60,996 nucleotides of DNA, from positions 1 through 60,996 of IMG/VR virus record IMGVR_UViG_3300026512_000014, one strand, 5' to 3'. The notes under the pieces are model-generated. The model was not told where the DNA came from. It did no database searches and saw only the letters and a list, made by a program, of their open reading frames with translations. The position numbers and the translations under genes are program-made. How positions within the stretch are numbered: position 1 is the first letter of the stretch; each line of letters starts with the position of its first letter. This DNA comes from a virus (taxonomy: Duplodnaviria; Caudoviricetes). Shown piece by piece: positions 1-10,727 of this stretch.

Positions 1-508
1 CTTTGTTATTGAACCATTGAAGCATCTCAAGATTTGACAATACAGAATTAAGTGTATTATCAAATCCATTATCTTCAAAGAACAATACTCTCTTCGCACC
101 TGACTTGGTGAAGAGAGGAATCATTCCATCTATTCTATTCTCTAAAGCATACTTATAAGCATACTTTAAAGAATTAATATCATTTAACTTCCCGTCTTCA
201 AAGTCAATAATCATATTGTCGGGAAGTATATTCTCCTCGGTTAAAGCATCAATAATATTAGGCCTATAAGCCTTTAATACTTTAACCATCTTATCAATAT
301 CCATTTGGTATTCATATACCTGCTTATTTGTAACTCTATACAAATAAGCCTTGCGAAGAAGTTTTATATACTTCTTCGCATAATTTTTGGTATCAATGCC
401 ATTTAAACGCATATGATACCAGTCAAGAATCACTCTCCATATTTTCTGGTTAGCGGTTACAATTTTCCCACTCAAAATTTCTTCTGCAATTTCCCTAAAA
501 TTCTTCAT
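1..508 (-). CDS. Partial ORF (runs off window end); probable paralogue of the N-terminal part of the single-subunit RNA polymerase at 2472-5747
   Basis: Not in the ORF track. Hand translation from ATG at 508 (AAGGAG at 514-519) is open to base 1: MKNFREIAEE...AYRPNIIDAL...IPLFTKSGAKRVLFF...LEMLQWFNNK. It shares RP-x-h-h-D and LF..KSGA-x-R-h-h-aromatic motifs, in order, with the 2472-5747 protein. Confidence 0.8.
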   Translation of the reverse strand, partial: MKNFREIAEEILSGKIVTANQKIWRVILDWYHMRLNGIDTKNYAKKYIKLLRKAYLYRVTNKQVYEYQMDIDKMVKVLKAYRPNIIDALTEENILPDNMIIDFEDGKLNDINSLKYAYKYALENRIDGMIPLFTKSGAKRVLFFEDNGFDNTLNSVLSNLEMLQWFNNK

Positions 509-753
509 ACTTACTCCTTTCTTTAATTTATTTTTTTAATAAGTAAAGAAGAACCTTGTATGAATAGTCCGAGCGGGAAATAAATTGAAGAGTAGAATAA
601 AATTGGTGGCGCAGAAAAAGAGAAAGAAAAGAGAAAAAAGAAAAAAATCTGGCATTATATATTTATAAGCGTCAACCTTATATCAATACAGTCATCAACA
701 CTTACATTTTTATAACAACACACACTATAAAATAAATAGATACACTTCCTTAT

Positions 754-790
754 AAAAAAGAAAAAAGAAAAGGGAAGACAAAGCCTTCCC
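754..790 (-). terminator. Intrinsic terminator after ORF 816-1232
   Basis: Minus strand GGGAAG-gctttgt-CTTCCC followed by a T-rich tract. Confidence 0.8.
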
Positions 791-815
791 AACGGGACTG
801 ATAGAGTTACAACTA

Positions 816-1232
816 TTACGCCTTCTGCTTGGCTTTTTTCTTCAGCGAAACCTTGGCATCGGTTTTGACTTTCGGAACTGTTGCATTTACAGGAATACTT
901 TCGCCAAGCAGACTGGCTTTCAATTTGTTTCCAACTCTTCTGCGATACTCAAGCGTAGTTGGTTCTGCTTTGGTCACAGAAAGTTGATAAACGGTTTCTG
1001 AATACTCTTGGTTCTTTTCAGCAGGTTTGTTCCACGAATTCACTTCAATGGCAACATTATCCCATACTTGGCAAACCTGAACATTACCTTCAAACTTTGG
1101 CTTAAATTCATCAGTCAAGCCAAAAAGTTTGATAGGCTTGCCGATGGCAATAAGTTGGCCTTCGGCTTCAATTACCTGCTGAAAAGAAACCTTTGAAAGT
1201 TGAACAAGTTTAAAATTCGAATTAAGTATCAT
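816..1232 (-). CDS. Hypothetical protein, beta-rich with a Lys-rich C-terminal tail (possible nucleic-acid-binding protein)
   Basis: 138 aa with AAGGAG SD and its own terminator; ends KVSLKKKAKQKA. The function is a guess. Confidence 0.75.
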   Translation of the reverse strand: MILNSNFKLVQLSKVSFQQVIEAEGQLIAIGKPIKLFGLTDEFKPKFEGNVQVCQVWDNVAIEVNSWNKPAEKNQEYSETVYQLSVTKAEPTTLEYRRRVGNKLKASLLGESIPVNATVPKVKTDAKVSLKKKAKQKA

Positions 1233-1367
1233 AGGACACTCCTTAAAGTTTATTTAGCGCCGAAATCGACGCCATATATGAGTAGTCAATATTAAAATAA
1301 AGTTATAAATTGTGCAGATATATATTAAAGAAACCTGAATAAGTTTAAAAAAAAGAAAAGACGAAGG

Positions 1368-1416
1368 CGGGGATTTGTGAATACTCTCATATAGCAATCC
1401 CCGAACTATATGAGAG
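1368..1416 (-). promoter_or_regulatory. Predicted H-type RNA pseudoknot in the leader of ORF 816-1232
   Basis: Minus strand CTCTCATATAG-tt-CGGGGATT-g-CTATATGAGAG-tattcaca-AATCCCCG: perfect interleaved stems of 11 bp and 8 bp. Confidence 0.65.
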
Positions 1417-1756
1417 ATGAGGATAAAGGGAAGGAAAGCCTTCATTTATGAATAGTCAAGTATAAAACATAATTATAAGAAAACAAAAGAGTTATAAAAA
1501 AACGGGATTATATATATTCTTAATTCCATAATAATAACTATATTAATACCATATAATAATTAATAACACTATAAATAAAACTGCTATATTATTAAAACTA
1601 AACAACAAATATCTATCTCTAACATATAAAAGGACTTACACAAAAGCGGCTCTATTAATCTTTTATTCTTAATACTATTTTTCCTTACCAAATATATATA
1701 TAAATATAAAACAAAACTATATAAACACTATATAAATAATACACAACATTATAAAG

Positions 1757-1893
1757 TATCACATATAGCCATATACAACTATACAGTATCATACACAATC
1801 ATATACATACCATATACAATCATATATAGTGTCATATACAATCATATACAGTCATATACGGTCATATACATACTATATACAGTGTCATATACA
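1757..1893. repeat. Degenerate tandem repeat of ~10-12 bp units with core (G/A)TCATATACA
   Basis: For example gtcatataca atcatataca gtcatatacg gtcatataca at 1831-1870; about a dozen imperfect units in a non-coding, G-poor tract. Confidence 0.85.
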
Positions 1894-2410
1894 GGTGGTC
1901 ACACACGCCGCTAACGCTCAAGAAGGGACACATAAGAGAGAAACAACCAAATCAAAAACGGCATTATATACCAAACCACACACAATTACACACAACCACA
2001 CAGACAGCAACTCTCTGGTACCAAATATCTTTGGCCAACGGGCAAAAAGAAAGAAGAAAGAGAAAGGATACAAAGAGAAAGAAGAAAGAAAGACATATAC
2101 ACTCACACATACACTCGTATACACACATACTCACACAAACACAACCAACTGCAAACACGGCACACAATTTCATTTGTAATATAGTCCGTGAGCGGTATGC
2201 ATACAAATGAAATACAAATAATTATCTAATAATATGTATACATACATTCATATATACAGTTTTATCTATATATATCAACGTATATATACACTATAATGTA
2301 TAATATTTAAACATATAGTAATTAATAACAAAAAAATATCACAAAAATGCTTATTTTTATAACTATATTTAAAATCAATCACTTAGTTTTTTATTTCCTA
2401 TATAGAAAAT

Positions 2411-2446
2411 AAAAAGACACGGTGTACAATATATATACACCGTGCC
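2411..2446 (-). terminator. Intrinsic terminator after the polymerase-RNase H gene
   Basis: Minus strand GGCACGGTGTA-loop-TACACCGTGTC-TTTTT. Confidence 0.8.
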
Positions 2447-2471
2447 CTAAACTTAAAAAGTTAATAACTAA

Positions 2472-5400
2472 TTAAGACTCAAGATTGTCCTTAATAAGCC
2501 CCATAACCCGCTTACAATACTTGTCAGCCAGGTTATCTTTCCTTGGAATCTTAATTATGTCTATGTCAATGCGTTCATTAAGTGCATTAACAGTAGACAC
2601 ATAATGTTTAGTGATATCATTTTTGGCCTGCCATTCACCGGTAAGCCACTTGATAAGACCTTCATAGTCTACATAACAAGTGACTTTATCATAACCGTTA
2701 TCAATAGCAAACTTAATTGCCTCAATAACGGCCTGGCACTCACCAGCAACCTGTCTTGTATCAGAATCAACCTGTCCAAAATTAATATGGATAGTATCTT
2801 CCGATACATATGCCCAAAATGATTTACCGGGAATCTTATCAGTATAAGACCCGTCGCAATACATCTTTAACTCCATGTTTACCTCCAAATTAGAAAACTG
2901 GTAGGCCACATCATGCAGCCTACCATTTTCATTAAGGTTATTAAAATGCTCCACGAATATATTAACTATATTCTTTGGAGCAATACTAAAGAACGCACTA
3001 TCAGAAACCTTTGATGAGAGGAATGCCCAACAGACTTCCTCTTTAATACCAAGTTGCTTGGACAAGTTTCTGATATATCTATGGGTTTCTACACCAAGAG
3101 TATATATAGCCACGTTAACCAGCGATAATATCTCTTCTTCTCTATCAGATTCCACTCTTTTAACATAAGAAACCATCGACATGAAGAGATTGAACATCTG
3201 ACCAACAAGATAAAAACGTGGCCAATACTCTTTATTATTGGATAACTTGTTATACTGCTTTACAAGGCCGTTGGTATAAATCCAATCCTGATATATATAT
3301 CTATATGAGAAACCAACAACCTTGGAAGTCCATCTTGTGAATTTACCTCTGATGTCTTGTATATGAACTTCAGCAGTACCAAAGTCTTCATCAGACTTTA
3401 CAAGTTCTCCAAACCTTGTACACCACTTATGCAGAACAGACATATAATGTGCAAATAATTTATGAATCTGTTCCGTACCAGTAAATGCACTATACACACA
3501 AGAAAGTCTCCTCAAAGCAGAGATACTAATACCACGAAACTCCTTCAGTACAGCCCTAAATGTATCAACTTTCACAAATATTTTAGAGTTTTCAACATAA
3601 TAAATCTTCCTCACGAAAGCATCCACTCTGGCCTGTATCTCTGCCGGTGTAAGCAGACCCTCAATGTTCTTCTTCTGTGCATTAATAACCCCTTGTTGTT
3701 GAGCAAAGAGGAACTCAATGAGTTCATATGCTTCTTTAATCAACTTAGGGTTACGAAGAGGTTTAATGGGAATAACTCTGTCGCCTATTTGTACCTCTCC
3801 AGCACCAGTAAGAAAAGCATGTATCTGGTCTGCAAATCTTTCAACCATACCGATATGCGCATCATATTGTAAAGCAATAAACAAATGCAAATCGGATACG
3901 GTTTTAATGTAAGCAGGAACCTCAGGTAGTTTCACATGTGCAAGTGGCGCCACAGGACAACTCCTCAAGCACTTCAAAAACTCACCACTAAACAGGGTTA
4001 TATCATCACCATCAAAATCATGTCCACTCAACACCCTATGTGGCGCATTCATATGCATAAATGCAAAACTACCAAGGCCTTCATCATTAATAACAACATA
4101 CTCAGCAGGACAGTCTCCAGTGAAGGTAACTGGATTCTTATATACTCCTACCTTATATGCCCCATCTGCAACAGATGGTAAATCAAGACCGCTTACATTG
4201 GCAATGATGATTCTATCAATAGGATATAACTTCCTGCCAATATATACCCTTGCACCCTTGGTAATAAAACCAAGACCATGGATATATGCTTTAAAAGCAT
4301 CCATAGGCAAGGATGTAGCGGTACAAGTTGTACCTTTCTTTGTTGCAGACAAGTCGACAGTGAAGAGCCTGCGCACATAACCTTTAATAATAGTAGCAGC
4401 GTTGTCTTTGCGCAATACCTTTAAATTACCAGGCAATCCCATTTTAACTGCAACGCCATAAGGTGTAGAAATGCTGGCATTCTTTACAAGCAGGTCTATA
4501 TTGAATTTCGTATTGTCTCTCAACACCTCAACTGCTTTAGCATTATCGAAATTCCAATGATAGAACACGAACTGCTGCGACAACTGTGCACCTGCTTTAT
4601 AATCGGTATCAGTTTTCATCACCAGAAATTCATCTGGTGTGAAACTAAGCCCTTCCATATCCCCAACCAATGCATCTTGGTTGAGAATAATATCTGTCTT
4701 CTTCACCCATTTAGGACCAAGTCCCTCTGCAAGTTTCTCCCATACGGGTTCAGAAACTTCAACAAAAGTACCTTTGGCCCACAACTTGTTAGAAAAACTA
4801 ACAAGTGTGCCTTGAAAAGCAGTAAATGTATTAAACTTCGATGCTTTAGATAATCTCTTCAAGACACCTGGACGAAACCAAGCAACTACGCCGTCTGCTT
4901 CAGGAACACTGATAGCAGCGGCTTTAAGTTTTCTGTTCCCAACAAGAGGCATACCTTGCCTAAGCAAAAGTACACCAATCTTTGAGAACACCTTAAAATT
5001 TAAACTGCTGTTAATATAGTTGTCATTAACATAAGATATAATACCCATAACAGCAGCAACCTCACGAACCAAATCTTCAAGACGCATTTTCTTTGTTGTA
5101 TATATAATTCTGGATGCACCAGACTTGGGAGCAAATAATACTACTTGCTCAAGGTTTGTGTTATTAACAATTTTAAGTCCCTTTTCGGGTTTACCGCCAG
5201 ACAATACGTCAAGAACATTCCTGACTAAATCACGTCTGGTCAATAAATCCTTGTCAAGAGACTCATCATCCACCGCAATCTCAAAAGACAAGGTGTCAAG
5301 CATTAAATGCTTGAACTTATCATAATGCATATCCAAGACAGTTGGTCTATCCCAGATGTACCTTGTCTCTTCCGTGAGAGTATACTCCACATCATTTGTC

Positions 5401-5747
5401 CTCTCAATGACAATGAATCTTCTTTCGAAGATATCAAAGCCTTGAGAAGCAAACTTACGGATTGCTCTCTTGGAAAACCTCTGCCCTGCGATGAACGCAT
5501 ATGCCTGTTGTTGCAAATTAATATTTGTTATAACCTCAGGCAATGTTGCAGCGTTACACACTCTTGCGAGTTGTGCCGCTACTGCGAACCTCGCATAAGA
5601 GAAACGATTGATGAACCTGACCAATGTTGTTACAACCATCTTTGTAAGACGGCTGTTCTCTTCCTCTTTAGCAGAGTCGAGGAATGCGATAAACTTCCTT
5701 GCGAACTTGTTCATCGTATGGATTACAGAATCAATAAGATTCAACAT
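2472..5747 (-). CDS. Single-subunit double-psi-beta-barrel RNA polymerase (YonO / RNAi-RdRP-like) fused to a C-terminal RNase HI domain
   Basis: Polymerase motifs in the expected order: WAKGTF, VYKNPVTFTGD, SGHDFDGDD (DFDGDD at 4002-4019), HIG. The last ~134 aa carry RNase HI motifs YCDGS, VAGECQA, YVDYEGLIKWLTGEWQAKN, NLADKYC. Start moved from 5783 to the ATG at 5747, which has an AAGGAGGT SD. Confidence 0.85.
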   Translation of the reverse strand: MLNLIDSVIHTMNKFARKFIAFLDSAKEEENSRLTKMVVTTLVRFINRFSYARFAVAAQLARVCNAATLPEVITNINLQQQAYAFIAGQRFSKRAIRKFASQGFDIFERRFIVIERTNDVEYTLTEETRYIWDRPTVLDMHYDKFKHLMLDTLSFEIAVDDESLDKDLLTRRDLVRNVLDVLSGGKPEKGLKIVNNTNLEQVVLFAPKSGASRIIYTTKKMRLEDLVREVAAVMGIISYVNDNYINSSLNFKVFSKIGVLLLRQGMPLVGNRKLKAAAISVPEADGVVAWFRPGVLKRLSKASKFNTFTAFQGTLVSFSNKLWAKGTFVEVSEPVWEKLAEGLGPKWVKKTDIILNQDALVGDMEGLSFTPDEFLVMKTDTDYKAGAQLSQQFVFYHWNFDNAKAVEVLRDNTKFNIDLLVKNASISTPYGVAVKMGLPGNLKVLRKDNAATIIKGYVRRLFTVDLSATKKGTTCTATSLPMDAFKAYIHGLGFITKGARVYIGRKLYPIDRIIIANVSGLDLPSVADGAYKVGVYKNPVTFTGDCPAEYVVINDEGLGSFAFMHMNAPHRVLSGHDFDGDDITLFSGEFLKCLRSCPVAPLAHVKLPEVPAYIKTVSDLHLFIALQYDAHIGMVERFADQIHAFLTGAGEVQIGDRVIPIKPLRNPKLIKEAYELIEFLFAQQQGVINAQKKNIEGLLTPAEIQARVDAFVRKIYYVENSKIFVKVDTFRAVLKEFRGISISALRRLSCVYSAFTGTEQIHKLFAHYMSVLHKWCTRFGELVKSDEDFGTAEVHIQDIRGKFTRWTSKVVGFSYRYIYQDWIYTNGLVKQYNKLSNNKEYWPRFYLVGQMFNLFMSMVSYVKRVESDREEEILSLVNVAIYTLGVETHRYIRNLSKQLGIKEEVCWAFLSSKVSDSAFFSIAPKNIVNIFVEHFNNLNENGRLHDVAYQFSNLEVNMELKMYCDGSYTDKIPGKSFWAYVSEDTIHINFGQVDSDTRQVAGECQAVIEAIKFAIDNGYDKVTCYVDYEGLIKWLTGEWQAKNDITKHYVSTVNALNERIDIDIIKIPRKDNLADKYCKRVMGLIKDNLES

Positions 5748-5860
5748 TCCATACCTCCTTTCCTTCCCTCCGTTAATTACCATGACGCATAAGCGTCAAC
5801 CAACAACGCACAGTTGTTTTGTTCTCTATATCACCTCCTTTCAATAGAAATATTAGAGTT

Positions 5861-5912
5861 ATATATAACTCCACTATGTACTGCAATAACAGTACATAAC
5901 AGAATCATATAT
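5861..5912 (-). other. Long hairpin, 23-bp stem with G.U pairs
   Basis: Arms 5861-5883 and 5890-5912; every mismatch becomes G.U on the minus strand. Confidence 0.8.
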
Positions 5913-5935
5913 AAAAAAGGGGGCACAAAGCCCCC
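5913..5935 (-). terminator. Intrinsic terminator
   Basis: GGGGGC-tttgt-GCCCCC-TTTTTT. Confidence 0.9.
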
Positions 5936-5941
5936 ATCTAA

Positions 5942-6067
5942 TTAATCTAAATCAAATACATAACAAAGGTCATCGTAATAATCAGAAAGGTAAAGTAAAT
6001 TATTAAAATACGTATAAGACACACAAGTTTCCTGCAAATAATTAATTCTCTCCGAATTCCTTTTCAT
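5942..6067 (-). CDS. Small hypothetical protein (41 aa)
   Basis: GGAGG SD; MKRNSERINYLQETCVSYTYFNNLLYLSDYYDDLCYVFDLD; stop lies just before the terminator. Confidence 0.6.
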   Translation of the reverse strand: MKRNSERINYLQETCVSYTYFNNLLYLSDYYDDLCYVFDLD

Positions 6068-6084
6068 CCTTTCCTCCTTTTTAA

Positions 6085-6432
6085 TTAATCTAACCCTAAT
6101 AACATTTCGACAACAGAGTCACAAGGAACTCTATGCCTTTTACCACTAAAAATCCTCTCAAGAAACTGGCCTAATTTATGAATACCAATTCCTCCTAACT
6201 CCTCGGAACAGATATTAATCATATCTGCTCCTTCACGTACAATAGTTAATACACAATCAACATCATTGCTGTATAATACGCAATGACTATCATACTGCTC
6301 AACATGATTTCTAAATTCTTTATCGGTACCAATAAAATAATTGACACCATTATAAACCTGAAAATCAATGAGGTCCCCATTGGGAACCTCTTCTGTCAAC
6401 TCATACCTGTACACAAAAATCTTTTCAATCAT
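6085..6432 (-). CDS. Early hypothetical protein, acidic paralogue family
   Basis: AGGAGGT SD; KIFV..NGD..YFIGTDKEF..LERIFS..LLG, similar to 6453-7010 and 8742-9071. Confidence 0.85.
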   Translation of the reverse strand: MIEKIFVYRYELTEEVPNGDLIDFQVYNGVNYFIGTDKEFRNHVEQYDSHCVLYSNDVDCVLTIVREGADMINICSEELGGIGIHKLGQFLERIFSGKRHRVPCDSVVEMLLGLD

Positions 6433-6452
6433 AATTACCTCCTTTTAATTGA

Positions 6453-7010
6453 TTAATAAATAAACTCTTCTTTATGTACCCCTAATGCATCCGCAATTAA
6501 ATAATCAAGATTATACTCATATGCTTTATCGCTAAAAATGCGATACAAAACTTTCGCAATATCAGCAGCAGTTATATCATCAAGCCCATTATTATTAACC
6601 TTTTCCAATGCCTCTTTAACTGAAATTTGGAAAACAACTCTAAAATTTTCTTCAGGTATATCATTGACACTATCAACAATATACCAGCCCACTGCTACAA
6701 ATTCCTCTATATCACCATTGAAATGAGTCATCACACAATCCTGCTCAACAATAAAAATATTCTTAAATATAACAGACTCTTCTTCCACACTAACAAGTTC
6801 ATAAATATCATTCCCCAAGTCTTCAACCTCAACAATAGCGCTTGTATCTCTGTTACTATATGAAATTGTATCCTTAAAATCACAAACCACTCCAAGACAG
6901 TTAAATCCAAACTTAACTGAAAAAACAAATATTTTGTATTCATTATTCCCAAGTGGTACTGCAAAATATACGTCTCCTTCTTCAATCCATCCATTAAATT
7001 TCTTTTTCAT
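6453..7010 (-). CDS. Early hypothetical protein, acidic paralogue family with an extra N-terminal domain
   Basis: AAGGAG SD; C-terminal half NIFIV..NGD..ITAADIAKVLYRIFS..ALG. Confidence 0.85.
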   Translation of the reverse strand: MKKKFNGWIEEGDVYFAVPLGNNEYKIFVFSVKFGFNCLGVVCDFKDTISYSNRDTSAIVEVEDLGNDIYELVSVEEESVIFKNIFIVEQDCVMTHFNGDIEEFVAVGWYIVDSVNDIPEENFRVVFQISVKEALEKVNNNGLDDITAADIAKVLYRIFSDKAYEYNLDYLIADALGVHKEEFIY

Positions 7011-7099
7011 AACATACTCCTTTTTTAGTTTTTCAATTTAATTAGTTAATAACAAATCATCAACTCGCACCATTAATTCTTATTCCTATTACCTCCTTC

Positions 7100-7260
7100 C
7101 ATAAGTGCCACCTGACACGTGTTCATACACATGCACACATCAGTGTCAACTTATAATCGTACGTGTACGTGTACGTTATCTTCATAATGCAATGCTTACG
7201 TGTACTTAACAAATAACTTAAACATTGCAATCCTCTCAAAAACGAGGTAACGTACACGTC
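7100..7260 (-). ncRNA. Structured RNA element, copy 1 (unknown family)
   Basis: 12-bp closing stem (7167-7178 with 7248-7259) enclosing a CCTC/GAGG hairpin and a TGCAATG/CATTGCA hairpin, then a long hairpin at 7101-7154; homologous to 8424-8623. Confidence 0.65.
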
Positions 7261-7274
7261 ATAGAATTATAGAT

Positions 7275-7296
7275 AAAAAGGGGTCCCGAAGGGCCC
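7275..7296 (-). terminator. Intrinsic terminator with UUCG loop
   Basis: GGGCCC-TTCG-GGACCCC-TTTTT. Confidence 0.8.
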
Positions 7297-7318
7297 AACA
7301 GAAAATGCAAATTAATTA

Positions 7319-7450
7319 TTATTCTTCATGAAGTCCTAATGCTACTGCGACCAAATAGTCATAATAGCATTGATACCCATTGGAAAACATGTGCTCAAGC
7401 GCAATCACTATATTGGTCGCACTTGCTTCTTTCAAAGACTTTTCATCTTC
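7319..7450 (-). pseudogene. 3' remnant of an acidic paralogue family gene
   Basis: EDEKSLKEASATNIVIALEHMFSNGYQCYYDYLVAVALGLHEE* aligns with the C-terminus of 6453-7010 (ITAADIAKVLYRIFSDKAYEYNLDYLIADALGVHKEE); no SD-linked start. Confidence 0.7.
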
Positions 7451-7495
7451 TCTATATATCACTACTATCTATATATAATAATAATGATACACAAA
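7451..7495 (-). other. Long hairpin, 18-bp stem with G.U pairs
   Basis: Arms 7451-7468 and 7478-7495 pair fully on the minus strand when G.U is allowed. Confidence 0.65.
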
Positions 7496-7508
7496 TAAGA
7501 TATTAAAC

Positions 7509-7533
7509 AAAAAAAGGGGAGCAAACGCTCCCC
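7509..7533 (-). terminator. Intrinsic terminator
   Basis: GGGGAGC-gttt-GCTCCCC-TTTTTTT. Confidence 0.9.
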
Positions 7534-7538
7534 AAAAC

Positions 7539-7751
7539 TCAAATTCTTGTTACGGTTATGTCCACATGTTGCTCCTTGGCAACAGTGCAGACATAATTAA
7601 CAACATTAGTAAACATAAACTTGTCCAACTTATTGGACAAGTTATAAACAGAAACCACCTCAATTCCAATCTTTGAGGCCAACTTCTCGTTGACCTCAAC
7701 AACGGCCATCGTTCCCTTGATGACCGTAACATGACAATAATTATACTTCAT
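7539..7751 (-). CDS. Early hypothetical protein (70 aa)
   Basis: AGGAGGT SD; followed by a terminator. Confidence 0.8.
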   Translation of the reverse strand: MKYNYCHVTVIKGTMAVVEVNEKLASKIGIEVVSVYNLSNKLDKFMFTNVVNYVCTVAKEQHVDITVTRI

Positions 7752-7760
7752 AATAACCTC

Positions 7761-7931
7761 CTATAAAAATAATGCCGTCATTATGACGGCCATAATAATA
7801 ATTTCACGAAGCCCAAGTTCGGGCTCCTCAGGACCTGTTAATATCATGTTATTAACAACCTTGGCGGCCAATAAGGCCACCAAGAAAAACGCACAAAAAA
7901 TAAACAGATAAAATAAAATAACCGTTAACAT
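7761..7931 (-). CDS. Small membrane protein with two hydrophobic helices (56 aa)
   Basis: Not in the ORF track. MLTVILFYLFIFCAFFLVALLAAKVVNNMILTGPEEPELGLREIIIMAVIMTALFL*; TAATG coupling to the upstream gene; AAGGAGGTGA SD. Confidence 0.75.
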   Translation of the reverse strand: MLTVILFYLFIFCAFFLVALLAAKVVNNMILTGPEEPELGLREIIIMAVIMTALFL

Positions 7932-8131
7932 TACATCACCTCCTTTAAAAACTCTACGGCAGCAATATCACCGTAGAGTTTTTTAAGTTTTCTAACAGCA
8001 TCGACACGGTCATGTGCCGATACTACTGAGATGAATTCTGGTTCATCCCAGTTTACCCTAACCGCCACCACAAAAGTAATAGGAGTCAATAACAACTTCC
8101 TCATAACTTTGTCAATTAAAACATCTAACAT
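7931..8131 (-). CDS. Early hypothetical protein (66 aa)
   Basis: AGGAGGT SD; tightly packed operon. Confidence 0.8.
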   Translation of the reverse strand: MLDVLIDKVMRKLLLTPITFVVAVRVNWDEPEFISVVSAHDRVDAVRKLKKLYGDIAAVEFLKEVM

Positions 8132-8142
8132 AATACCTCCTC

Positions 8143-8346
8143 TTATAACTCTCTTACCAGGAAACCTCTCCTGGCAAGAGAATTTTTAATGGTTAATAAA
8201 TCACCACGCTCTTTCCTTATAACCCCTTTTCTGGGGTCATAAAGAGTCGCATACCCGTTAGCAACATTAAGAACAAGCAGCACCTTCAATTGGTGCTGCA
8301 AGTGTTTTGGAACCAAATCGGTCCAATGAATCTTTTTTTCACACAT
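8143..8346 (-). CDS. Early hypothetical basic protein (67 aa)
   Basis: AGGAGGTG SD precedes the ATG at 8346 (MCEKKIHW). Confidence 0.8.
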   Translation of the reverse strand: MCEKKIHWTDLVPKHLQHQLKVLLVLNVANGYATLYDPRKGVIRKERGDLLTIKNSLARRGFLVREL

Positions 8347-8423
8347 AGACACCTCCTAAAACTTAATAGGTTAATAAAACTAATTCCCTTACCGCACATC
8401 CTTTTTTCTTTATCACCTCCTTT

Positions 8424-8623
8424 CATAAGCGTCATCTGAGACACACTCATGCACACGCACACATCAGTGTTAACTTATAGTCATACGTGCACGTGCACGT
8501 TGTCTCCGTGATGCAATGCTTGCGTATACTTAAACAACTTGGGCATTGCAATCCCCTCAAAAACGGGGTTATTTTAATAAGCCCAATACGCAATCCTCTC
8601 ATAAACGAGGTAAACGTACACGC
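8424..8623 (-). ncRNA. Structured RNA element, copy 2, with an internal duplication of the small hairpin
   Basis: Colinear with 7100-7260; closing stem 8492-8501 with 8613-8622; contains both CCTCGTTTATGAGAGG and CCCCGTTTTTGAGGGG. Confidence 0.65.
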
Positions 8624-8634
8624 CAAGAGTTATA

Positions 8635-8698
8635 TATATAACTCCACTATATATCACCATATCAATTAAGATATAATGATACATAATGGAACTATATA
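8635..8698 (-). other. Long hairpin, 29-bp stem with G.U pairs
   Basis: Arms 8635-8663 and 8670-8698; shares ATAGTGGAGTTATATAT with the hairpin at 5861. Confidence 0.85.
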
Positions 8699-8701
8699 AA
8701 T

Positions 8702-8722
8702 AAAAAGGGGGCCGAAGCCCCC
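8702..8722 (-). terminator. Intrinsic terminator with UUCG loop
   Basis: GGGGGC-TTCG-GCCCCC-TTTTT. Confidence 0.9.
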
Positions 8723-8741
8723 AACAAAAAACACAAATTAA

Positions 8742-9071
8742 TTATGCACCTAAAACACCCAAAACATCATAAACATAAGGAGACATAATGTTTTGGTTCC
8801 ACGAGTTGCAAATAGCAATTGCAACTTGTGTCGCAGAAAAACCACTTGTTCTACTATTGTTATTAATTAACTCCATAACACTATCAACTCCTTTTTCAAA
8901 AACAATATTAAGAAGCGCATCATGTTCCTTATCAACATACGCTTCAAATTCTTCTTTTGTTCCTATAAACCAATCATAGGAACAAAAAGTATCTGTAATA
9001 ATAACATCACCATTCTCATCAACTTCGGTAATCCAATCTTCTACATAAAAAACAAAAATTTTCTTTTTCAT
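8742..9071 (-). CDS. Early hypothetical protein, acidic paralogue family
   Basis: AAGGAG SD; KIFVF..NGD..WFIGTKEEF..SATQVAIAI..VLG. Confidence 0.85.
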   Translation of the reverse strand: MKKKIFVFYVEDWITEVDENGDVIITDTFCSYDWFIGTKEEFEAYVDKEHDALLNIVFEKGVDSVMELINNNSRTSGFSATQVAIAICNSWNQNIMSPYVYDVLGVLGA

Positions 9072-9170
9072 AATAAATCTCCTTTTCCTCTTTTAATTTA
9101 TTCTGTTAATAAACCAAAAAACCAATAACCGCACATAATTAATATCTATCACCTCCCTTCTATATAAATA

Positions 9171-9231
9171 TTTACTTAATATCTTAATTATGTATTACCA
9201 AAAATAATACATAACTAAAACATTAAATAAA
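9171..9231 (-). other. Long hairpin, 27-bp stem with G.U pairs
   Basis: Arms 9171-9197 and 9205-9231; four mismatches, all G.U on the minus strand. Confidence 0.8.
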
Positions 9232-9250
9232 AAAGGGCCCCGAAGGGCCC
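9229..9250 (-). terminator. Intrinsic terminator with UUCG loop
   Basis: GGGCCC-TTCG-GGGCCC-TTTTTT. Confidence 0.9.
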
Positions 9251-9277
9251 AACGGAAATACTAATGTTAATAAAAAA

Positions 9278-9778
9278 TTATCTTAATTTTGCTGAATTTG
9301 CACCGCAAAATAAAGAAAGATGATTAATAACATACTTCTCATCGAGAACATCATAATGCTCCGATACACTGTGAATGAATTCACATTCACCTAAAAATTG
9401 TGCCCAATAAGTAGTTCCTCCGCTTTTACATTTTACATAGAGTCTGTTATCATCCTCAATCTTAATATCGTTCTCAATTCTTTGGATAAACTTATCATAT
9501 CTAACCGCAAATTTTGGGATAGTATGTCCAGGACTCCAAAGGTCTCCAGAAATTCTTTCCGAAATAATCACATACTCTCCCGTAGGGTCATATCCTACTG
9601 TACCATTACCAATTTCTCTGCAATCAATGTTTGACAAGCACATTATTTCGTGCTTGTTTGCGTCTTCAATTTTAATCTCGTCAGTCTGAGACAAATCTAT
9701 AAGATTTGTCCTGAAAATATTCTTCAACATTTTCTCTACTTTACCCGCATACTTTTCAATATAAAACACGCTTAACAT
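9278..9778 (-). CDS. Early hypothetical protein (166 aa), first gene of the leftward block
   Basis: AAGGAG SD; terminator downstream. Confidence 0.85.
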   Translation of the reverse strand: MLSVFYIEKYAGKVEKMLKNIFRTNLIDLSQTDEIKIEDANKHEIMCLSNIDCREIGNGTVGYDPTGEYVIISERISGDLWSPGHTIPKFAVRYDKFIQRIENDIKIEDDNRLYVKCKSGGTTYWAQFLGECEFIHSVSEHYDVLDEKYVINHLSLFCGANSAKLR

Positions 9779-9929
9779 AATAATCTCCTTTTTTTATTTT
9801 TTAGTATAAATATTTATATACCGCCTTATACCAGAGCGGTTAATAATAAAGTTAATATAAACAACCCCATGCCGCACATCTTTCTCTTTCTTATCACCTC
9901 CTTTCTTTCTGCCCATTTGGTTAATAACA

Positions 9930-9977
9930 CAGGGGGGGTGGGCAAATCCCCCTGGGACTCCACCTTTTGACGAGTCC
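9930..9977. other. GC-rich tandem hairpins at the divergence point
   Basis: CAGGGGG..CCCCCTG (9930-9954) abutting GGACTC..GAGTCC (9955-9977). Confidence 0.55.
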
Positions 9978-9978
9978 T

Positions 9979-10090
9979 ACACATATACCTCTGCTTCTGT
10001 TTGTGTATTCTTATATTTACACACATACTCCTATCTCTGCTTATGTTCACACATATACCTCTGCCTATATTTGCATACACCTCTATATCT
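9979..10090. repeat. Short imperfect direct repeats ACACATATACCTCTGC
   Basis: Exact copies near 9979 and 10048, with degenerate copies near 10021 and 10073. Confidence 0.7.
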
Positions 10091-10328
10091 TTGTGTTTTA
10101 TATTTTTATATTTTTTAAAAAAGAGTGCGGCATTTCCCTATATCCCCTTTCTTTTTTCCTTAAAAGTTGGTTTTAATATATTTCTCTTTGGTACCAAATA
10201 TAAACTTATATATAAAACATTTCCCCAAAGAAAAAAGGTTATAGAAAAAAGAAACATATGTTAATATATATATGTTGGTTATATATATTAACTGATTTAT
10301 TTTAAAAAAACATTCCACGGAGGTATTA

Positions 10329-10727
10329 ATGGTTAATTTAGAAGAAGTAAGGGACAATATTGTTATGGTACAGGTACTGGGTGGGCAGCCTATTATTGGT
10401 GTACTTGAAGACAGCAATGGTGTATATAATAATATGGATGCGATAGTGTTAAAATATGCTGTTATGTTTCAAACTCATATAGGTGAAGACAAACAAATGA
10501 GTTTTGTACCTGTTAAGTTAAGTAGTTTATGTAAAGAGGATGCTGAATATTTTATTAACAAAAGTCATATTATATTTATTACCGGTGATTTGGATGATGA
10601 AATTATTGATTACTATATTGATATGTTTAAGATATTAACAGGTGAATCAAGTTCGTCTTATGATGCTGATACTGCAGAAGAAGTTAAGGAAGATGATAAT
10701 ATTATTAAACTTAACAGTGAGAAATAA
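10329..10727 (+). CDS. Hypothetical protein (small beta-rich domain, acidic tail)
   Basis: GGAGGT SD; 132 aa. Confidence 0.8.
   Translation: MVNLEEVRDNIVMVQVLGGQPIIGVLEDSNGVYNNMDAIVLKYAVMFQTHIGEDKQMSFVPVKLSSLCKEDAEYFINKSHIIFITGDLDDEIIDYYIDMFKILTGESSSSYDADTAEEVKEDDNIIKLNSEK

What the first reader, a model, noticed from the sequence alone, without database searches (positions are those of the whole stretch)
2472..5747. YonO/RdRP-like single-subunit RNA polymerase fused in frame to RNase HI
Seen: one uninterrupted ORF with KG, KNPVTFTGD and GHDFDGDD motifs, followed by an RNase HI domain that keeps its acidic residues (DGS, GE, VDY, LAD). Established: this motif set defines the two-barrel family that includes SPbeta YonO, crAss-like phage RNAPs and eukaryotic RNAi RdRPs. 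I know of no described fusion of this family to RNase H. Inference: either the RNase H removes R-loops behind a minimal polymerase, or the fusion is a self-contained primer maker (transcribe, form an R-loop, cleave, as in ColE1 RNA II priming). The second reading fits the repeat-rich, strand-skewed non-coding tract directly downstream.
Basis: partly seen in the sequence, partly recalled or inferred. Interest (0 to 1): 0.9.

Follow-up and report, generated by a model that had tools for sequence, protein, structure and literature searches.

The report
Phage RNA polymerase-RNase H fusion
A large uncultured tailed phage encodes one protein that joins a small cell-type ("two-barrel") RNA polymerase from a tiny, unrecognised family to an RNase H that cuts RNA paired with DNA; the pairing is real and recurs in relatives, a similar pairing has been noted in print, and its purpose is untested.

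Summary
A minus-strand CDS (2472-5747, 1091 aa; frame open to ATG 5783) carries the stated motifs. It ends in a type-1 RNase H with all four catalytic carboxylates.

The N-terminal ~960 aa match no Pfam, PHROG, NCBIfam or PDB sequence. Only 5 clusters, self included, exist among 1.84 billion representatives.

Two low-confidence AlphaFold models still point to single-chain two-barrel RNA polymerases:
- All 11 Foldseek PDB hits at E<=0.001 are QDE-1, RDR2 or a Thermus-phage RNAP.
- crAss-like gp66 is the only chain with Z>=8, and its alignment ends at the catalytic motif.

The fusion is not an artefact. An independent 152-kb assembly gives 1090/1091 identical residues, and contigs from another study cross the junction without gaps. 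Two of the four relatives are also fused, with different linkers.

The phage carries a second paralogue without RNase H.

Function is inferred only. My best reading is a phage transcriptase whose tethered RNase H clears RNA:DNA hybrids. Origin priming is the main rival.

Novelty is moderate. RdRP-like enzymes combined with RNase H were noted in print (PMC3417536), and this scan recorded such fusions on other DNA.

The parts
2472..5747 (-). CDS of the polymerase-RNase H fusion (1091 aa from ATG 5747; frame open to ATG 5783 = 1103 aa, P0001 numbering)
   Evidence: AAAGGAGGT 5 nt before ATG 5747
5172..5747 (-). N-terminal region (aa 13-204), poorly conserved, predicted helical, no match
4596..4955 (-). 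first double-psi beta-barrel (beta-like, DPBB-B; aa ~277-396) with invariant PEADG (D297, G298), FQGTL (323-327) and AKG (K337, G338)
   Evidence: best-modelled part (pLDDT 66-83); VIA aligns model 73..192 to the Rpb1 barrel 346..499 at Z 4.7-4.8 and model 16..192 to gp66 665..1105 at Z 9.0; invariants
4164..4595 (-). connector between the two barrels (aa ~397-540), about 145 aa
   Evidence: position between the barrels; gp66 and QDE-1 have a ~140-residue connector (preprint 10.1101/2020.03.07.982082, passages); low pLDDT
3984..4163 (-). second barrel (beta-prime-like, DPBB-A; aa ~541-600) with K549-N550-P551 and the Mg-binding D589-F-D591-G-D593 (window 4005-4019)
   Evidence: VIA alignments end in register with the catalytic motifs of gp66 (model 386 vs chain 1360; DFDID is 1361-1365) and QDE-1 (model 385 vs 1006; DYDGD is 1007-1011)
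3669..3749 (-). long helix ending in invariant QG-I-A-KK (697-705): candidate bridge helix (inferred)
   Evidence: helix 679-702 in model; invariants Q697, G698, I700, A702, K704, K705
2916..3668 (-). C-terminal helical part of the polymerase (aa 706-956), conserved in all 5 members up to about aa 950
2877..2915 (-). 13-residue linker that looks like a former intergenic spacer: 12-bp hairpin (2925-2899), GGAGGT (2886-2881), then in-frame ATG 2876
2472..2876 (-). type-1 RNase H domain (aa 970-1103 plus stop); D977, E1015, D1039, D1087; no basic protrusion, no His124 equivalent
2414..2448 (-). intrinsic terminator (15-bp stem plus T run) right after the stop codon
5829..5840 (-). AAGGAGGTGATA element 82 nt upstream of the start; one of 7 copies, all on the minus strand of the early block
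   Evidence: 7 found, 0.27 expected
2..508 (-). 5' end (169 aa) of a second polymerase paralogue (870 aa in full, P0006) that has DYDGDD but no RNase H; cut by the contig end
1446..2413 (.). 1-kb non-coding tract between the fusion gene and the next gene; 10-nt-period array at 1758-1894, GT-rich (minus strand) core at 1900-2200, AT-rich flanks; role unknown

Best explanation
Identity (about 0.9). The gene encodes a non-virion, single-chain two-barrel RNA polymerase of the clade that holds eukaryotic QDE-1/RDR enzymes, SPbeta YonO, crAss-like gp66 and Thermus-phage gp64. It has a beta-like barrel, a ~145-aa connector and a beta-prime-like barrel with DFDGD. A catalytically complete type-1 RNase H is attached at the C-terminus through a short linker.

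Mechanism (inferred, about 0.4). The enzyme is made early in infection of a ~152-kb contractile-tailed phage and transcribes phage DNA independently of the host polymerase. This minimal polymerase lacks most accessory domains of cellular RNAPs, so it is prone to leave RNA annealed to the template. The tethered RNase H then cuts the RNA strand of these hybrids (R-loops) in cis. That frees the template for replication and for further rounds of transcription. The paralogue without RNase H (P0006) would be a second transcriptase for another gene class.

Shown: sequence, fold assignment, intact catalytic residues in both modules, the conserved fusion, and that the fused frame is real.
Inferred: RNA synthesis, DNA template, timing, and what the RNase H acts on.
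For: Fold (core model, aa 205-725):
- All 11 Foldseek PDB matches at E<=0.001 are single-chain two-barrel RNAPs: QDE-1 6 rows, RDR2 4, phage P32 gp64 1; best 4.7e-5.
- In VIA-wide, 1 of 48,161 chains reaches Z>=8: crAss-like gp66 6vr4_B, Z 9.0, rmsd 3.4, 160 aligned. The full-length model gave the same chain at Z 9.0.
- pdb_via alignments end at the catalytic motifs of gp66, QDE-1 and RDR2.
- BFVD best hit 7.7e-8; a Thermus virus P23-45 protein scores 1.5e-4.
- In the ESM Atlas, 26 of 30 look-alike clusters carry PF05183 RdRP, score 0.96.

Motifs:
- D589/D591/D593, K549-N-P551, K337-G338 and D297-G298 are invariant in 5 of 5 members.
- Spacings match the invariants of six YonO-type proteins: KG to (R/K)xP is 213 vs 221; P to first D is 38 vs 41; first D to the IG motif is 56 vs 58.

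RNase H: intact DEDD; Z 16.7 to 4e19_A.

Linkage selected:
- 3 of 5 clusters, self included, are fused through three different linkers: 13 aa; a ~40-aa acidic stretch; a NADAR-like insert.
- RNase H identity tracks core identity: P0001 vs P0004 47/128 (RNase H) and 145/465 (core); P0001 vs P0005 45/128 and 151/471; P0004 vs P0005 81/132 and 200/467.

Transcriptase role:
- Every characterised phage enzyme of this clade that I read about is a transcriptase: YonO for late genes (PMC5467207, passages); gp66 (preprint passages); P23-45 gp64 and gp96 (abstract and sections 8-9).
- Sigma-70-like sites are not enriched in 1-10400: 43 found vs 47.6 +/- 8.4 expected.
- The gene sits among small orphan early-type genes and carries the block's repeated upstream element.
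Against: - Both models are poor: mean pLDDT 48.8 and 55.6, with the DFDGD barrel itself at about 50. Foldseek TM-scores are only 0.24-0.33 at rmsd 16-20 A.
- No sequence method links the family to known RNAPs. Pfam gave nothing at E<=1. PF05183 gave nothing at E<=10. The PDB profile search found only RNase H. hhalign against six YonO-type proteins gave E 0.0072 but probability 5.4%.
- The Arg of the conserved R-x-P is Lys here, and the second conserved basic residue of the beta-like barrel was not identified.
- YonO releases its RNA from the template without help: its transcripts resisted RNase H (PMC5467207, passage). A minimal polymerase therefore need not make R-loops.
- A tethered RNase H would destroy the enzyme's own product whenever a hybrid forms, which is an odd design for an mRNA maker.
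- 2 of 5 members work without the domain.
- The hairpin, SD and ATG at the junction allow the RNase H to be made and to act on its own.
- No RNA data exist; the host and the other 91 kb of the genome were not seen.
Confidence: 0.45

Rival explanations
1. Replication primer maker. The polymerase transcribes through an origin, the RNA stays annealed as an R-loop, and the tethered RNase H trims it to a 3'-OH that the phage DNA polymerase extends. This is the logic of ColE1 RNA II with RNase H, or mitochondrial POLRMT with RNase H1. The paralogue without RNase H would be the real transcriptase.
For: - A polymerase-RNase H fusion makes most sense if the hybrid is the wanted intermediate.
- The phage has a second paralogue without RNase H, which allows a division of labour.
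- Print speculation exists. RdRP-like enzymes of phages and selfish elements are suggested to act 'as primases', with the RNase H combination noted (PMC3417536, passages). Jumbo phages without a primase but with RNase H1 may prime with their RNAPs (PMC7824862, passage).
- A 1-kb non-coding tract with a 10-nt-period array (9.8 copies), a GT-rich core and AT-rich flanks lies directly downstream.
Against: - No origin has been mapped.
- A strong terminator separates the gene from the tract.
- The tract's GC skew is shared by the whole early block.
- Replication genes, and whether a primase exists, lie outside the 61-kb fragment (CheckV 41% complete).
- All characterised phage relatives are transcriptases.
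- ColE1 and POLRMT are recalled analogies, not tested here.
Confidence: 0.25
2. Incidental fusion. An rnh gene once lay directly behind the polymerase gene and the stop codon was lost. The RNase H works as in other large phages, removing Okazaki primers, whether attached or made separately from the internal SD/ATG at 2876. It has no special relation to what the polymerase does.
For: - The 13-residue linker is encoded by a terminator-like 12-bp hairpin followed by GGAGGT and an in-frame ATG, exactly at the domain boundary. The family's homology ends just before it.
- The nearest named relatives of the domain are free-standing RNase H genes of Staphylococcus and Mammaliicoccus myoviruses: 24 records, best 39.8% identity over 100 aa.
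- 2 of 5 members lack the domain.
Against: - Fusion occurs in 3 of 5 clusters with three unrelated linkers. The reading frame is kept in a strain with 20 listed substitutions and no indel.
- RNase H divergence parallels polymerase divergence, which suggests long co-inheritance.
- Pairings of RNase H with two-barrel polymerases are reported for an unrelated cyanobacterial family (PMC3417536) and in AI notes of this scan on other phages (unchecked).
Confidence: 0.2
3. The polymerase module has another activity. It could be RNA-dependent RNA synthesis or dual DdRP/RdRP like QDE-1, DNA synthesis like archaeal PolD, or no catalysis at all. The RNase H would then act on a different substrate.
For: - The best fold matches are QDE-1 and RDR2. 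QDE-1 has both DNA- and RNA-dependent activity (PMC9508822, abstract in the search listing).
- PolD shares the two-barrel core (PMC4996933, abstract in the listing).
- The top structural matches of the RNase H domain are archaeal-type enzymes (4e19, 3aly, 3u3g). One entry title mentions unusual enzymatic properties.
Against: - YonO is a strict DNA-dependent RNAP (PMC5467207, passage), and the other phage members that have been tested are DNA-dependent RNA polymerases too.
- The catalytic triad and the KG/KNP positions are invariant, so an inactive protein is unlikely.
- A dsDNA phage has no obvious need for an RdRP.
Confidence: 0.07
4. Assembly artefact: a chimeric contig or sequencing error joined two genes.
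For: Metagenomic contig; the junction looks like an intergenic spacer.
Against: - An independent assembly gives 1090/1091 identical residues over the same 1091-aa frame.
- Contigs of two runs from another study bridge 2810-3396 and 2280-3157 without gaps.
- Two distant homologues are also fused.
Confidence: 0.01

Closest known systems
crAss-like phage phi14:2 gp66 (PDB 6VR4), virion RNA polymerase
   Same: Best structural match: Z 9.0, and Z 8.2 with the alignment ending one residue before its DFDID 1361-1365. Both barrels in one chain, joined by a ~140-aa connector.
   Different: gp66 has 2180 aa, is virion-packaged, has DFDID instead of DFDGD, and has no RNase H. Sequence identity in the aligned part is 11%. 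The window protein is encoded among early genes, not structural genes.
Eukaryotic RNAi polymerases QDE-1 and RDR2 (Pfam PF05183 RdRP)
   Same: Top Foldseek matches, E 4.7e-5 to 7.7e-4, probability 0.87-0.99. DbDGD triad. A K/R-N-P...GD motif upstream of the triad (resemblance to the RDR 'KNPCLHPGD' motif is recalled, not from a call). 26 of 30 Atlas look-alike clusters carry PF05183.
   Different: No PF05183 HMM match. Those enzymes are eukaryotic, act on RNA or ssDNA templates, and have no RNase H.
SPbeta YonO and YonO-like phage RNAPs
   Same: Single-chain phage RNAP of similar size (839 aa). Same order and near-identical spacing of the DG / KG / (R/K)xP / DxDGD / IG motifs. YonO is a proven DNA-dependent RNAP for late genes (PMC5467207, passages).
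   Different: hhalign gives only E 0.0072, probability 5.4%. No tblastn relation to any of 50,697 phage records. YonO has no RNase H and separates RNA from the template unaided. In 6 of 6 YonO-type loci fetched, an HU/IHF-like gene lies nearby; none is recognisable here.
Thermus phage P23-45 polymerase relay (gp96 tape-measure-fused virion RNAP plus gp64 non-virion RNAP; related structures 8F72, 8F5M, 8H2M)
   Same: A phage with more than one paralogous two-barrel RNAP. Fold matches 8f72_A 6.9e-4, 8f5m_B 4.7e-3, 8h2m 2.7e-2. The window also has a tail-module giant protein with TRYP...GDYDGD, which would mirror gp96.
   Different: A myovirus, not a siphovirus. The tail-protein polymerase is unverified here. 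The main text of PMC10770324 does not mention RNase H (0 occurrences); its supplements were not seen.
Cyanobacterial RdRP-like proteins 'combined with RNAse H domain' (Iyer and Aravind 2011, as quoted in PMC3417536)
   Same: The same idea, a two-barrel RdRP-like polymerase associated with RNase H, read as work on RNA-DNA hybrids and possibly priming (passages).
   Different: A different, cellular or selfish-element family. I could not see the original paper or any sequence, so the domain order and whether it is a fusion or a gene neighbourhood are unknown to me. The window's family is phage-borne and was not found in 185,579 species genomes by pattern scan.
Free-standing type-1 RNase H of Staphylococcus/Mammaliicoccus myoviruses and PDB 2KQ2
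   Same: Closest sequence relatives of the C-terminal domain: 39.8% identity to phage CF5 RNase H and 1.6e-10 to 2kq2. Same DEDD, same lack of the basic protrusion.
   Different: Those are ~140-aa stand-alone proteins.
Retroviral and retroelement reverse transcriptase-RNase H
   Same: A polymerase with a C-terminal RNase H that degrades the RNA strand of the hybrid the polymerase deals with. RT RNase H domains are strong fold matches.
   Different: Unrelated polymerase fold (right-hand versus two-barrel) and the opposite chemistry (DNA made on RNA). This is an analogy of architecture only.

Membership tests
Two-barrel RNA polymerase superfamily (eight invariant residues of Ruprich-Robert and Thuriaux 2010, PMC2919709, passages) | Mg-binding Asp triad DxDxD (Rpb1 D479/D481/D483; QDE-1 1007-DYDGD-1011) | tested here: met
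   D589-F-D591-G-D593, invariant in 5 of 5 members
Two-barrel RNA polymerase superfamily | R-x-P about 35-40 residues before the triad (Rpb1 R446, P448) | tested here: inconclusive
   K549-N550-P551 lies 38 residues before D589 and is invariant in 5 of 5. Pro is kept, but Arg is Lys in every member. YonO-type proteins have R492-x-P494, 41 residues before D535.
Two-barrel RNA polymerase superfamily | Asp of the beta-like barrel (Rpb2 D837; QDE-1 D709) | tested here: inconclusive
   Candidate D297 in invariant P-x-x-D-G. It is aligned to the YonO D249-G250 column only by a weak secondary hhalign hit (E 0.19).
Two-barrel RNA polymerase superfamily | Two basic residues of the beta-like barrel (Rpb2 K979, K987) | tested here: inconclusive
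   K337 in the invariant K-G matches the YonO K271-G272 position. No invariant second basic residue lies 5-8 residues away; other invariant basics are K313, R275 and K268.
Two-barrel RNA polymerase superfamily | Two double-psi beta-barrels in one chain (beta-like first) joined by a connector | tested here: met
   Foldseek: 11 of 11 hits at E<=0.001 are such enzymes. VIA: Z 9.0 and 8.2 to gp66, 7.0 to RDR2, 5.6 to gp64, gp62 and QDE-1. Model 73..192 also aligns to the Rpb1 barrel. Caveat: model pLDDT is 55.6, and about 50 in the second barrel.
Two-barrel RNA polymerase superfamily | Bridge helix and trigger loop after the catalytic barrel | tested here: inconclusive
   Predicted helix 679-702 ends in invariant QG-I-A-KK. 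No residue-level structural alignment was available.
Two-barrel RNA polymerase superfamily | Template-dependent NTP polymerisation | not testable with these tools
   Needs purified protein
Pfam PF05183 (RdRP) | HMM match above the 23.8-bit cut-off | tested here: not met
   No match at E<=1 or E<=10 in six frames. In the same control search B. subtilis (YonO) rings only below the cut-off, so a miss does not exclude kinship.
YonO-like phage RNAPs | Detectable sequence or profile similarity to YonO | tested here: inconclusive
   hhalign of A2 against six YonO-type proteins: E 0.0072, probability 5.4%, centred on DxDGD, with a collinear second hit at E 0.19. tblastn found no N-terminal match in the phage collection.
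Type-1 RNase H (RNase HI) | Four catalytic carboxylates (E. coli D10, E48, D70, D134; numbers recalled, columns from the call) | tested here: met
   All four columns are invariant in A4 across E. coli RnhA, P0001, phage CF5 RNase H, P0004 and P0005
Type-1 RNase H (RNase HI) | RNase H fold and family HMM | tested here: met
   VIA Z 16.7, rmsd 2.4, 127 of 133 residues to 4e19_A. Foldseek 2.5e-7. RVT_3 36 bits against cut-off 21.6; PF00075 24.2 bits, just under its 25.8 cut-off. PHROG 531 5e-15.
Type-1 RNase H (RNase HI) | Basic protrusion and His124 of the E. coli type | tested here: not met
   Both regions are gaps in A4. The domain resembles the archaeal or RVT_3 type (NCBIfam RnaseHI_Halo 1.6e-7, far below its equivalog cut-off). 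These are not defining features for type 1 as a whole.

The most novel reading that the evidence does not exclude
The fusion is a self-contained origin-priming machine. A two-barrel RNA polymerase synthesises an RNA that stays annealed at a phage origin, and its own RNase H trims that RNA into the primer for DNA replication. The RNase H-less paralogue, and possibly a third polymerase embedded in the 1856-aa tail protein, handle gene expression. This would be a three-polymerase phage that needs neither the host RNAP nor a primase.
Probability: 0.18. Interest if true: 0.8.

Novelty: new variant of a known kind. Interest (0 to 1): 0.6.

Why it matters
Single-chain two-barrel RNA polymerases are the simplest relatives of the cellular transcription enzyme, and few families have been studied.

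What this adds:
- A family so divergent that no sequence method recognises it, with only 5 clusters in 1.84 billion representatives.
- A natural, conserved covalent link to RNase H.
- A built-in control, the paralogue without RNase H in the same phage.

That pair makes a long-standing speculation directly testable: do RdRP-like enzymes of phages and mobile elements work on RNA:DNA hybrids, or act as primases?

It also adds to the evidence that large environmental phages carry several hidden RNA polymerases. Any protein with RNA synthesis and hybrid-specific cleavage in one chain could also be useful as a reagent.

Tried and rejected
Sequence searches of the N-terminal 960 aa:
- Pfam, PHROGs, NCBIfam and PDB sequences gave nothing except RNase H.
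- tblastn against 50,697 phage records found only RNase H-domain hits in 24 records, and nothing for P0006. megablast of 1-10000 found no match.

Word-indexed homologue searches:
- Region 1-960 found self plus P0003.
- Core profile A2 at E<=10 found self only.
- RNase H region 965-1103 among proteins of 606-1931 aa found self only.
- These say little, because candidates must share exact words with the query.

Pattern scans for related loci found no confirmed relative in viral contigs (101 pattern hits), metagenome contigs (593) or genome contigs (224). So I saw no genomic context for any homologue.

hhalign results were weak:
- A2 vs YonO alone: E 0.064.
- A2 vs six YonO-type proteins: E 0.0072, probability 5.4%.
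- The 1856-aa protein vs A2: E 0.043. The same protein vs the YonO set: 0.77.

Structure work:
- The full-length AlphaFold model (pLDDT 48.8) was useless for Foldseek beyond the RNase H domain.
- No complex-prediction job was sent.

Other checks:
- The 1856-aa tail protein has no Pfam, PHROG, NCBIfam or PDB sequence match. Its Atlas score was only 0.82 for an RdRP cluster. It is left as a lead.
- Rfam gathering search and ARAGORN on the whole window: 0 hits each.
- Sequencing runs: no RNA holder listed, so expression is untested. Runs X3 and X4 leave parts of the stretch uncovered.
- Early-block neighbours: 10 ORFs scanned in PHROGs gave no functional lead for the minus-strand genes. The Pfam scan gave one sub-threshold Jacalin hit.

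Literature:
- Searches were: 'YonO / RNA polymerase / double-psi' (183 papers, 20 listed); 'two-barrel / RNase H / phage' (3 papers); 'gp66 / crAss-like / virion RNA polymerase / DFDID' (43 papers); 'RNA-dependent RNA polymerase / RNase H / cyanobacteria / double-psi' (4 papers).
- The only mention of an RNase H pairing that I found is the passage in PMC3417536.
- 'RNase H' occurs 0 times in the main texts of PMC10770324, PMC2919709 and the gp66 preprint.
- Supplementary files were not opened. Supplementary Data 3 and Extended Data Table 2 of Chaban et al. (alignments of 23 RNAP families), and the supplements of PMC2919709 and PMC7824862, may already list this family or such fusions.
- Iyer and Aravind 2011 (PMC3769190) is not held.

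Rejected ideas:
- Assembly chimera.
- A plus-strand gene: the plus-strand ORFs inside 2472-5783 are at most 161 aa and overlap the conserved frame.
- The downstream tract as evidence for priming: a terminator intervenes and the skew is not specific.

Full report
**What is there**

The window is an entire 60,996-bp IMG/VR virus record. It is linear and CheckV rates it 41% complete.
- Positions 10.3-61 kb carry a plus-strand structural module of a contractile-tailed phage: prohead protease, terminase, portal, major head protein, sheath and baseplate wedge.
- Positions 1-10 kb carry a minus-strand block of small orphan genes. These are punctuated by intrinsic terminators: 31 terminator-like sites against 4.5 +/- 2.2 expected.
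- The finding is the one large gene of that block. Its frame is open from 5783 to 2472 on the minus strand (1103 aa, P0001).
- The ATG at 5747 has AAAGGAGGT five nt upstream, while the ATG at 5783 has no such site. The CDS is therefore 2472-5747, 1091 aa.

**The RNase H half**

Residues 970-1103 match:
- Pfam RVT_3 at 36 bits (cut-off 21.6) and RNase_H at 24.2 bits (cut-off 25.8);
- PHROG 531 'Rnase H' at 5e-15;
- PDB 2kq2 at 1.6e-10;
- archaeal-type RNase HI NCBIfam models, weakly.

In the full-length model this is the only confident part. It superposes on Halobacterium RNase H1 4e19_A at Z 16.7, rmsd 2.4 A, 127 residues (Foldseek 2.5e-7).

I aligned it with E. coli RnhA, a free-standing Staphylococcus-phage RNase H and the two fused homologues. 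The columns of E. coli D10, E48, D70 and D134 are invariant; in P0001 they are D977, E1015, D1039 and D1087. The basic protrusion and the His124 region are absent. The domain therefore looks catalytically competent.

**The polymerase half**

Sequence gives almost nothing.
- Residues 1-960 have no Pfam, PHROG, NCBIfam or PDB-sequence match and no tblastn match in 50,697 phage records.
- An exhaustive phmmer search of 1.84 billion representatives found 5 proteins: itself, P0004 (1215 aa), P0005 (1088 aa), P0003 (945 aa) and P0006 (870 aa).
- At 22-28% identity to P0001, the five share invariant PKSGA-R, SKIG, P-x-x-DG, FQGTL, KG, KNP, D-x-DGD and QG-I-A-KK.

Two-barrel RNAPs are defined by eight invariant residues (PMC2919709, passages): a DxDxD triad, R-x-P upstream of it, and an Asp plus two Lys in the other barrel.
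- Clearly present here: the triad (D589, D591, D593), the Pro (P551, 38 residues upstream) and one Lys (K337 in KG).
- The Arg is Lys in all members.
- D297 is a plausible but unproven counterpart of the beta-barrel Asp.
- The second Lys was not located.

The order and spacing of these motifs closely match the invariants of six YonO-type proteins that I aligned:

| Interval | This family | YonO-type |
|---|---|---|
| KG to (R/K)xP | 213 | 221 |
| P to first D | 38 | 41 |
| First D to IG | 56 | 58 |

Profile-profile comparison itself is weak: E 0.0072, probability 5.4%, plus a collinear second hit at E 0.19. Chaban et al. state that most families of this superfamily share no significant similarity beyond the DxDxD region (section 9).

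**Fold evidence**

AlphaFold had only five sequences, so confidence is low: pLDDT 48.8 for the whole protein and 55.6 (pTM 0.50) for the core, aa 205-725. The searches nevertheless agree.
- Foldseek, core model vs PDB: all 11 matches at E<=0.001 are single-chain two-barrel RNAPs (QDE-1 six rows, RDR2 four, Thermus-phage P32 gp64 one). crAss-like gp66, P74 gp62 and P23-45 gp96 follow.
- Foldseek vs viral models: best hit 7.7e-8. The next hits include a Thermus virus P23-45 protein and proteins named RNA-dependent RNA polymerase.
- VIA-align against 48,161 representative chains: one chain reaches Z>=8, gp66 6vr4_B, at Z 9.0, rmsd 3.4, 160 residues. The poorer full-length model gave the same chain at Z 9.0, as the only non-RNase H, non-helical hit above Z 8.8.
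- Second-look alignments stop just at the catalytic motifs. Model 386 (P0001 aa 590) aligns to gp66 1360, and its DFDID is 1361-1365. Model 385 aligns to QDE-1 1006, and its DYDGD is 1007-1011. Model 385 also aligns to RDR2 829.
- The best-modelled stretch (P0001 aa 277-396) also aligns to the barrel of Rpb1 and to other double-psi barrels.
- An independent language-model search put 26 of 30 nearest clusters in PF05183 RdRP, score 0.96.

Caveats: TM-scores are 0.24-0.33, and the barrel that holds DFDGD is itself modelled at pLDDT about 50. I put the two-barrel RNAP identity at about 0.9.

**Is the fusion real and selected?**

- P0007 is 1090/1091 identical over the same 1091 aa. It comes from a different source and a 151,978-bp contig that also holds P0006.
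- Logan contigs of four runs were laid on 1-10400. No indel is listed between 1257 and 7013. X2 record 11 and X4 record 26 (another study) cross the junction with 0 gaps. X1 may be the source sample.
- Of the 20 substitutions listed inside the ORF, 9 are synonymous, 11 are not, and none makes a stop.
- P0004 and P0005 also end in RNase H, but with different joints: a ~40-aa acidic stretch in P0005 and a weak NADAR-like insert in P0004 (25.6 bits, cut-off 35.1).
- P0003 and P0006 stop where the linker begins.
- RNase H identity between members tracks core identity. P0001 vs P0004 is 47/128 (RNase H) and 145/465 (core). P0001 vs P0005 is 45/128 and 151/471. P0004 vs P0005 is 81/132 and 200/467. 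This fits long co-inheritance.
- In the window the 13-residue linker is encoded by a 12-bp hairpin (2925-2899), GGAGGT (2886-2881) and an in-frame ATG (2876). It looks like a former intergenic spacer.
- That points to a fusion by stop-codon loss of two adjacent genes in this lineage. It also leaves open separate translation of the RNase H.

**Context**

- The ORF at 2..508 is the first 169 residues of P0006 at 100% identity. P0006 is an 870-aa paralogue with DYDGDD, KNP and KG but no RNase H. The phage therefore has two such polymerases 2 kb apart on the same strand.
- A 1856-aa tail-module protein has TRYP...GDYDGD, as another note of this scan says. I could not confirm that it is a polymerase.
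- AAGGAGGTGATA occurs 7 times (0.27 expected), only on the minus strand at 5829-9903. One copy lies 82 nt upstream of the start.
- Sigma-70-like sites are not enriched: 43 found vs 47.6 +/- 8.4 expected.
- The 1-kb tract downstream (1446-2413) has a 10-nt-period array, a GT-rich core and AT-rich flanks. However, a 15-bp-stem terminator separates it from the gene, its GC skew is that of the whole block, and related repeats lie at 9979-10219.

**How it probably works**

Every characterised phage member of this clade that I read about is a transcriptase:
- YonO transcribes late genes (PMC5467207, passages).
- gp66 is a virion RNA polymerase (preprint passages).
- P23-45 gp96 transcribes pre-early genes and gp64 transcribes early and middle genes (abstract and sections 8-9).

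I therefore read the protein as a non-virion phage transcriptase whose tethered RNase H removes the RNA of hybrids left on the template (about 0.4).

Against this reading:
- YonO separates its RNA from the template unaided.
- An attached RNase H threatens the enzyme's own product.
- Two family members do without the domain.

Rivals:
- The main rival (about 0.25) is a transcribe-and-trim primer maker. This has been speculated in print for this superfamily (PMC3417536; PMC7824862).
- An incidental fusion with an independently acting RNase H gets about 0.2.
- None of these can be separated without the rest of the genome or experiments.

**Novelty**

PMC3417536, citing Iyer and Aravind 2011, notes RdRP-like enzymes combined with RNase H in cyanobacteria and proposes roles on RNA-DNA hybrids. 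AI notes of this scan record RNase H-polymerase fusions in hot-spring phages on other DNA (unchecked).

What is new here:
- a distinct, sequence-orphan phage family;
- RNase H at the C-terminus, joined in three different ways;
- a junction that still looks intergenic;
- an RNase H-less paralogue in the same genome.

I class it as a new variant of a known kind, interest 0.6.

Noticed in passing
window 2-508 (-): 5' end of a second polymerase paralogue: 100% identical to the first 169 aa of P0006 (870 aa; DYDGDD, KNP and KG kept; no RNase H). The rest lies beyond the contig end.
   Followed up: partly
window 39960-45530 (+): An 1856-aa tail-module protein with TRYP, then about 40 aa, then GDYDGD at aa 1408, followed by IGNITN. 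It is a possible third, virion-delivered two-barrel polymerase like P23-45 gp96. No family or PDB match; Atlas only 0.82; hhalign uninformative.
   Followed up: partly
window 5829-9903 (-): AAGGAGGTGATA (up to 1 mismatch) occurs 7 times, all on the minus strand of the early block, against 0.27 expected. It could be a phage promoter or a leader element; one copy precedes the fusion gene.
   Followed up: partly
window 1-10400: Terminator-like hairpins are about 7-fold enriched (31 vs 4.5 +/- 2.2), nearly all on the minus strand. Several are GGGGCC-type stems after each small gene. Sigma-70-like sites are not enriched.
   Followed up: no
window 7087-7209 and 8411-8533: A 123-nt non-coding element is duplicated at 81% identity, with further shared pieces at 7211-7250 / 8532-8613.
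   Followed up: no
window 1446-2413: A 1-kb gene-free tract with a 10-nt-period array (1758-1894, 9.8 copies), AAAG and ACAC runs, a GT-rich (minus strand) core at 1900-2200 and flanks of 14-24% GC. Related motifs lie at 9979-10219. Contigs of other runs break here.
   Followed up: partly
window 2877-2925 (-): A hairpin plus GGAGGT plus an in-frame ATG lie exactly at the polymerase/RNase H boundary. This is either a relic of an intergenic spacer or an internal start for free RNase H.
   Followed up: partly
P0004 residues 952-1049: A homologue carries a weak NADAR-like stretch (25.6 bits, cut-off 35.1) between the polymerase and the RNase H.
   Followed up: no
L004-L007, L009, L010 (YonO-type phage loci): In 6 of 6 loci an HU/IHF-like DNA-binding gene lies one to three genes downstream of the YonO-type polymerase gene. 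In the window, the 138-aa protein with a Lys-rich tail (816-1232) between the two paralogues has no family match.
   Followed up: no
window 6600-9900, runs X2-X4: Contigs of related strains show joints that skip or rearrange parts of the early block (for example 8698 to 9231 and 8378 to 9864). The small-gene region therefore varies between strains, while the polymerase gene differs only by substitutions.
   Followed up: no
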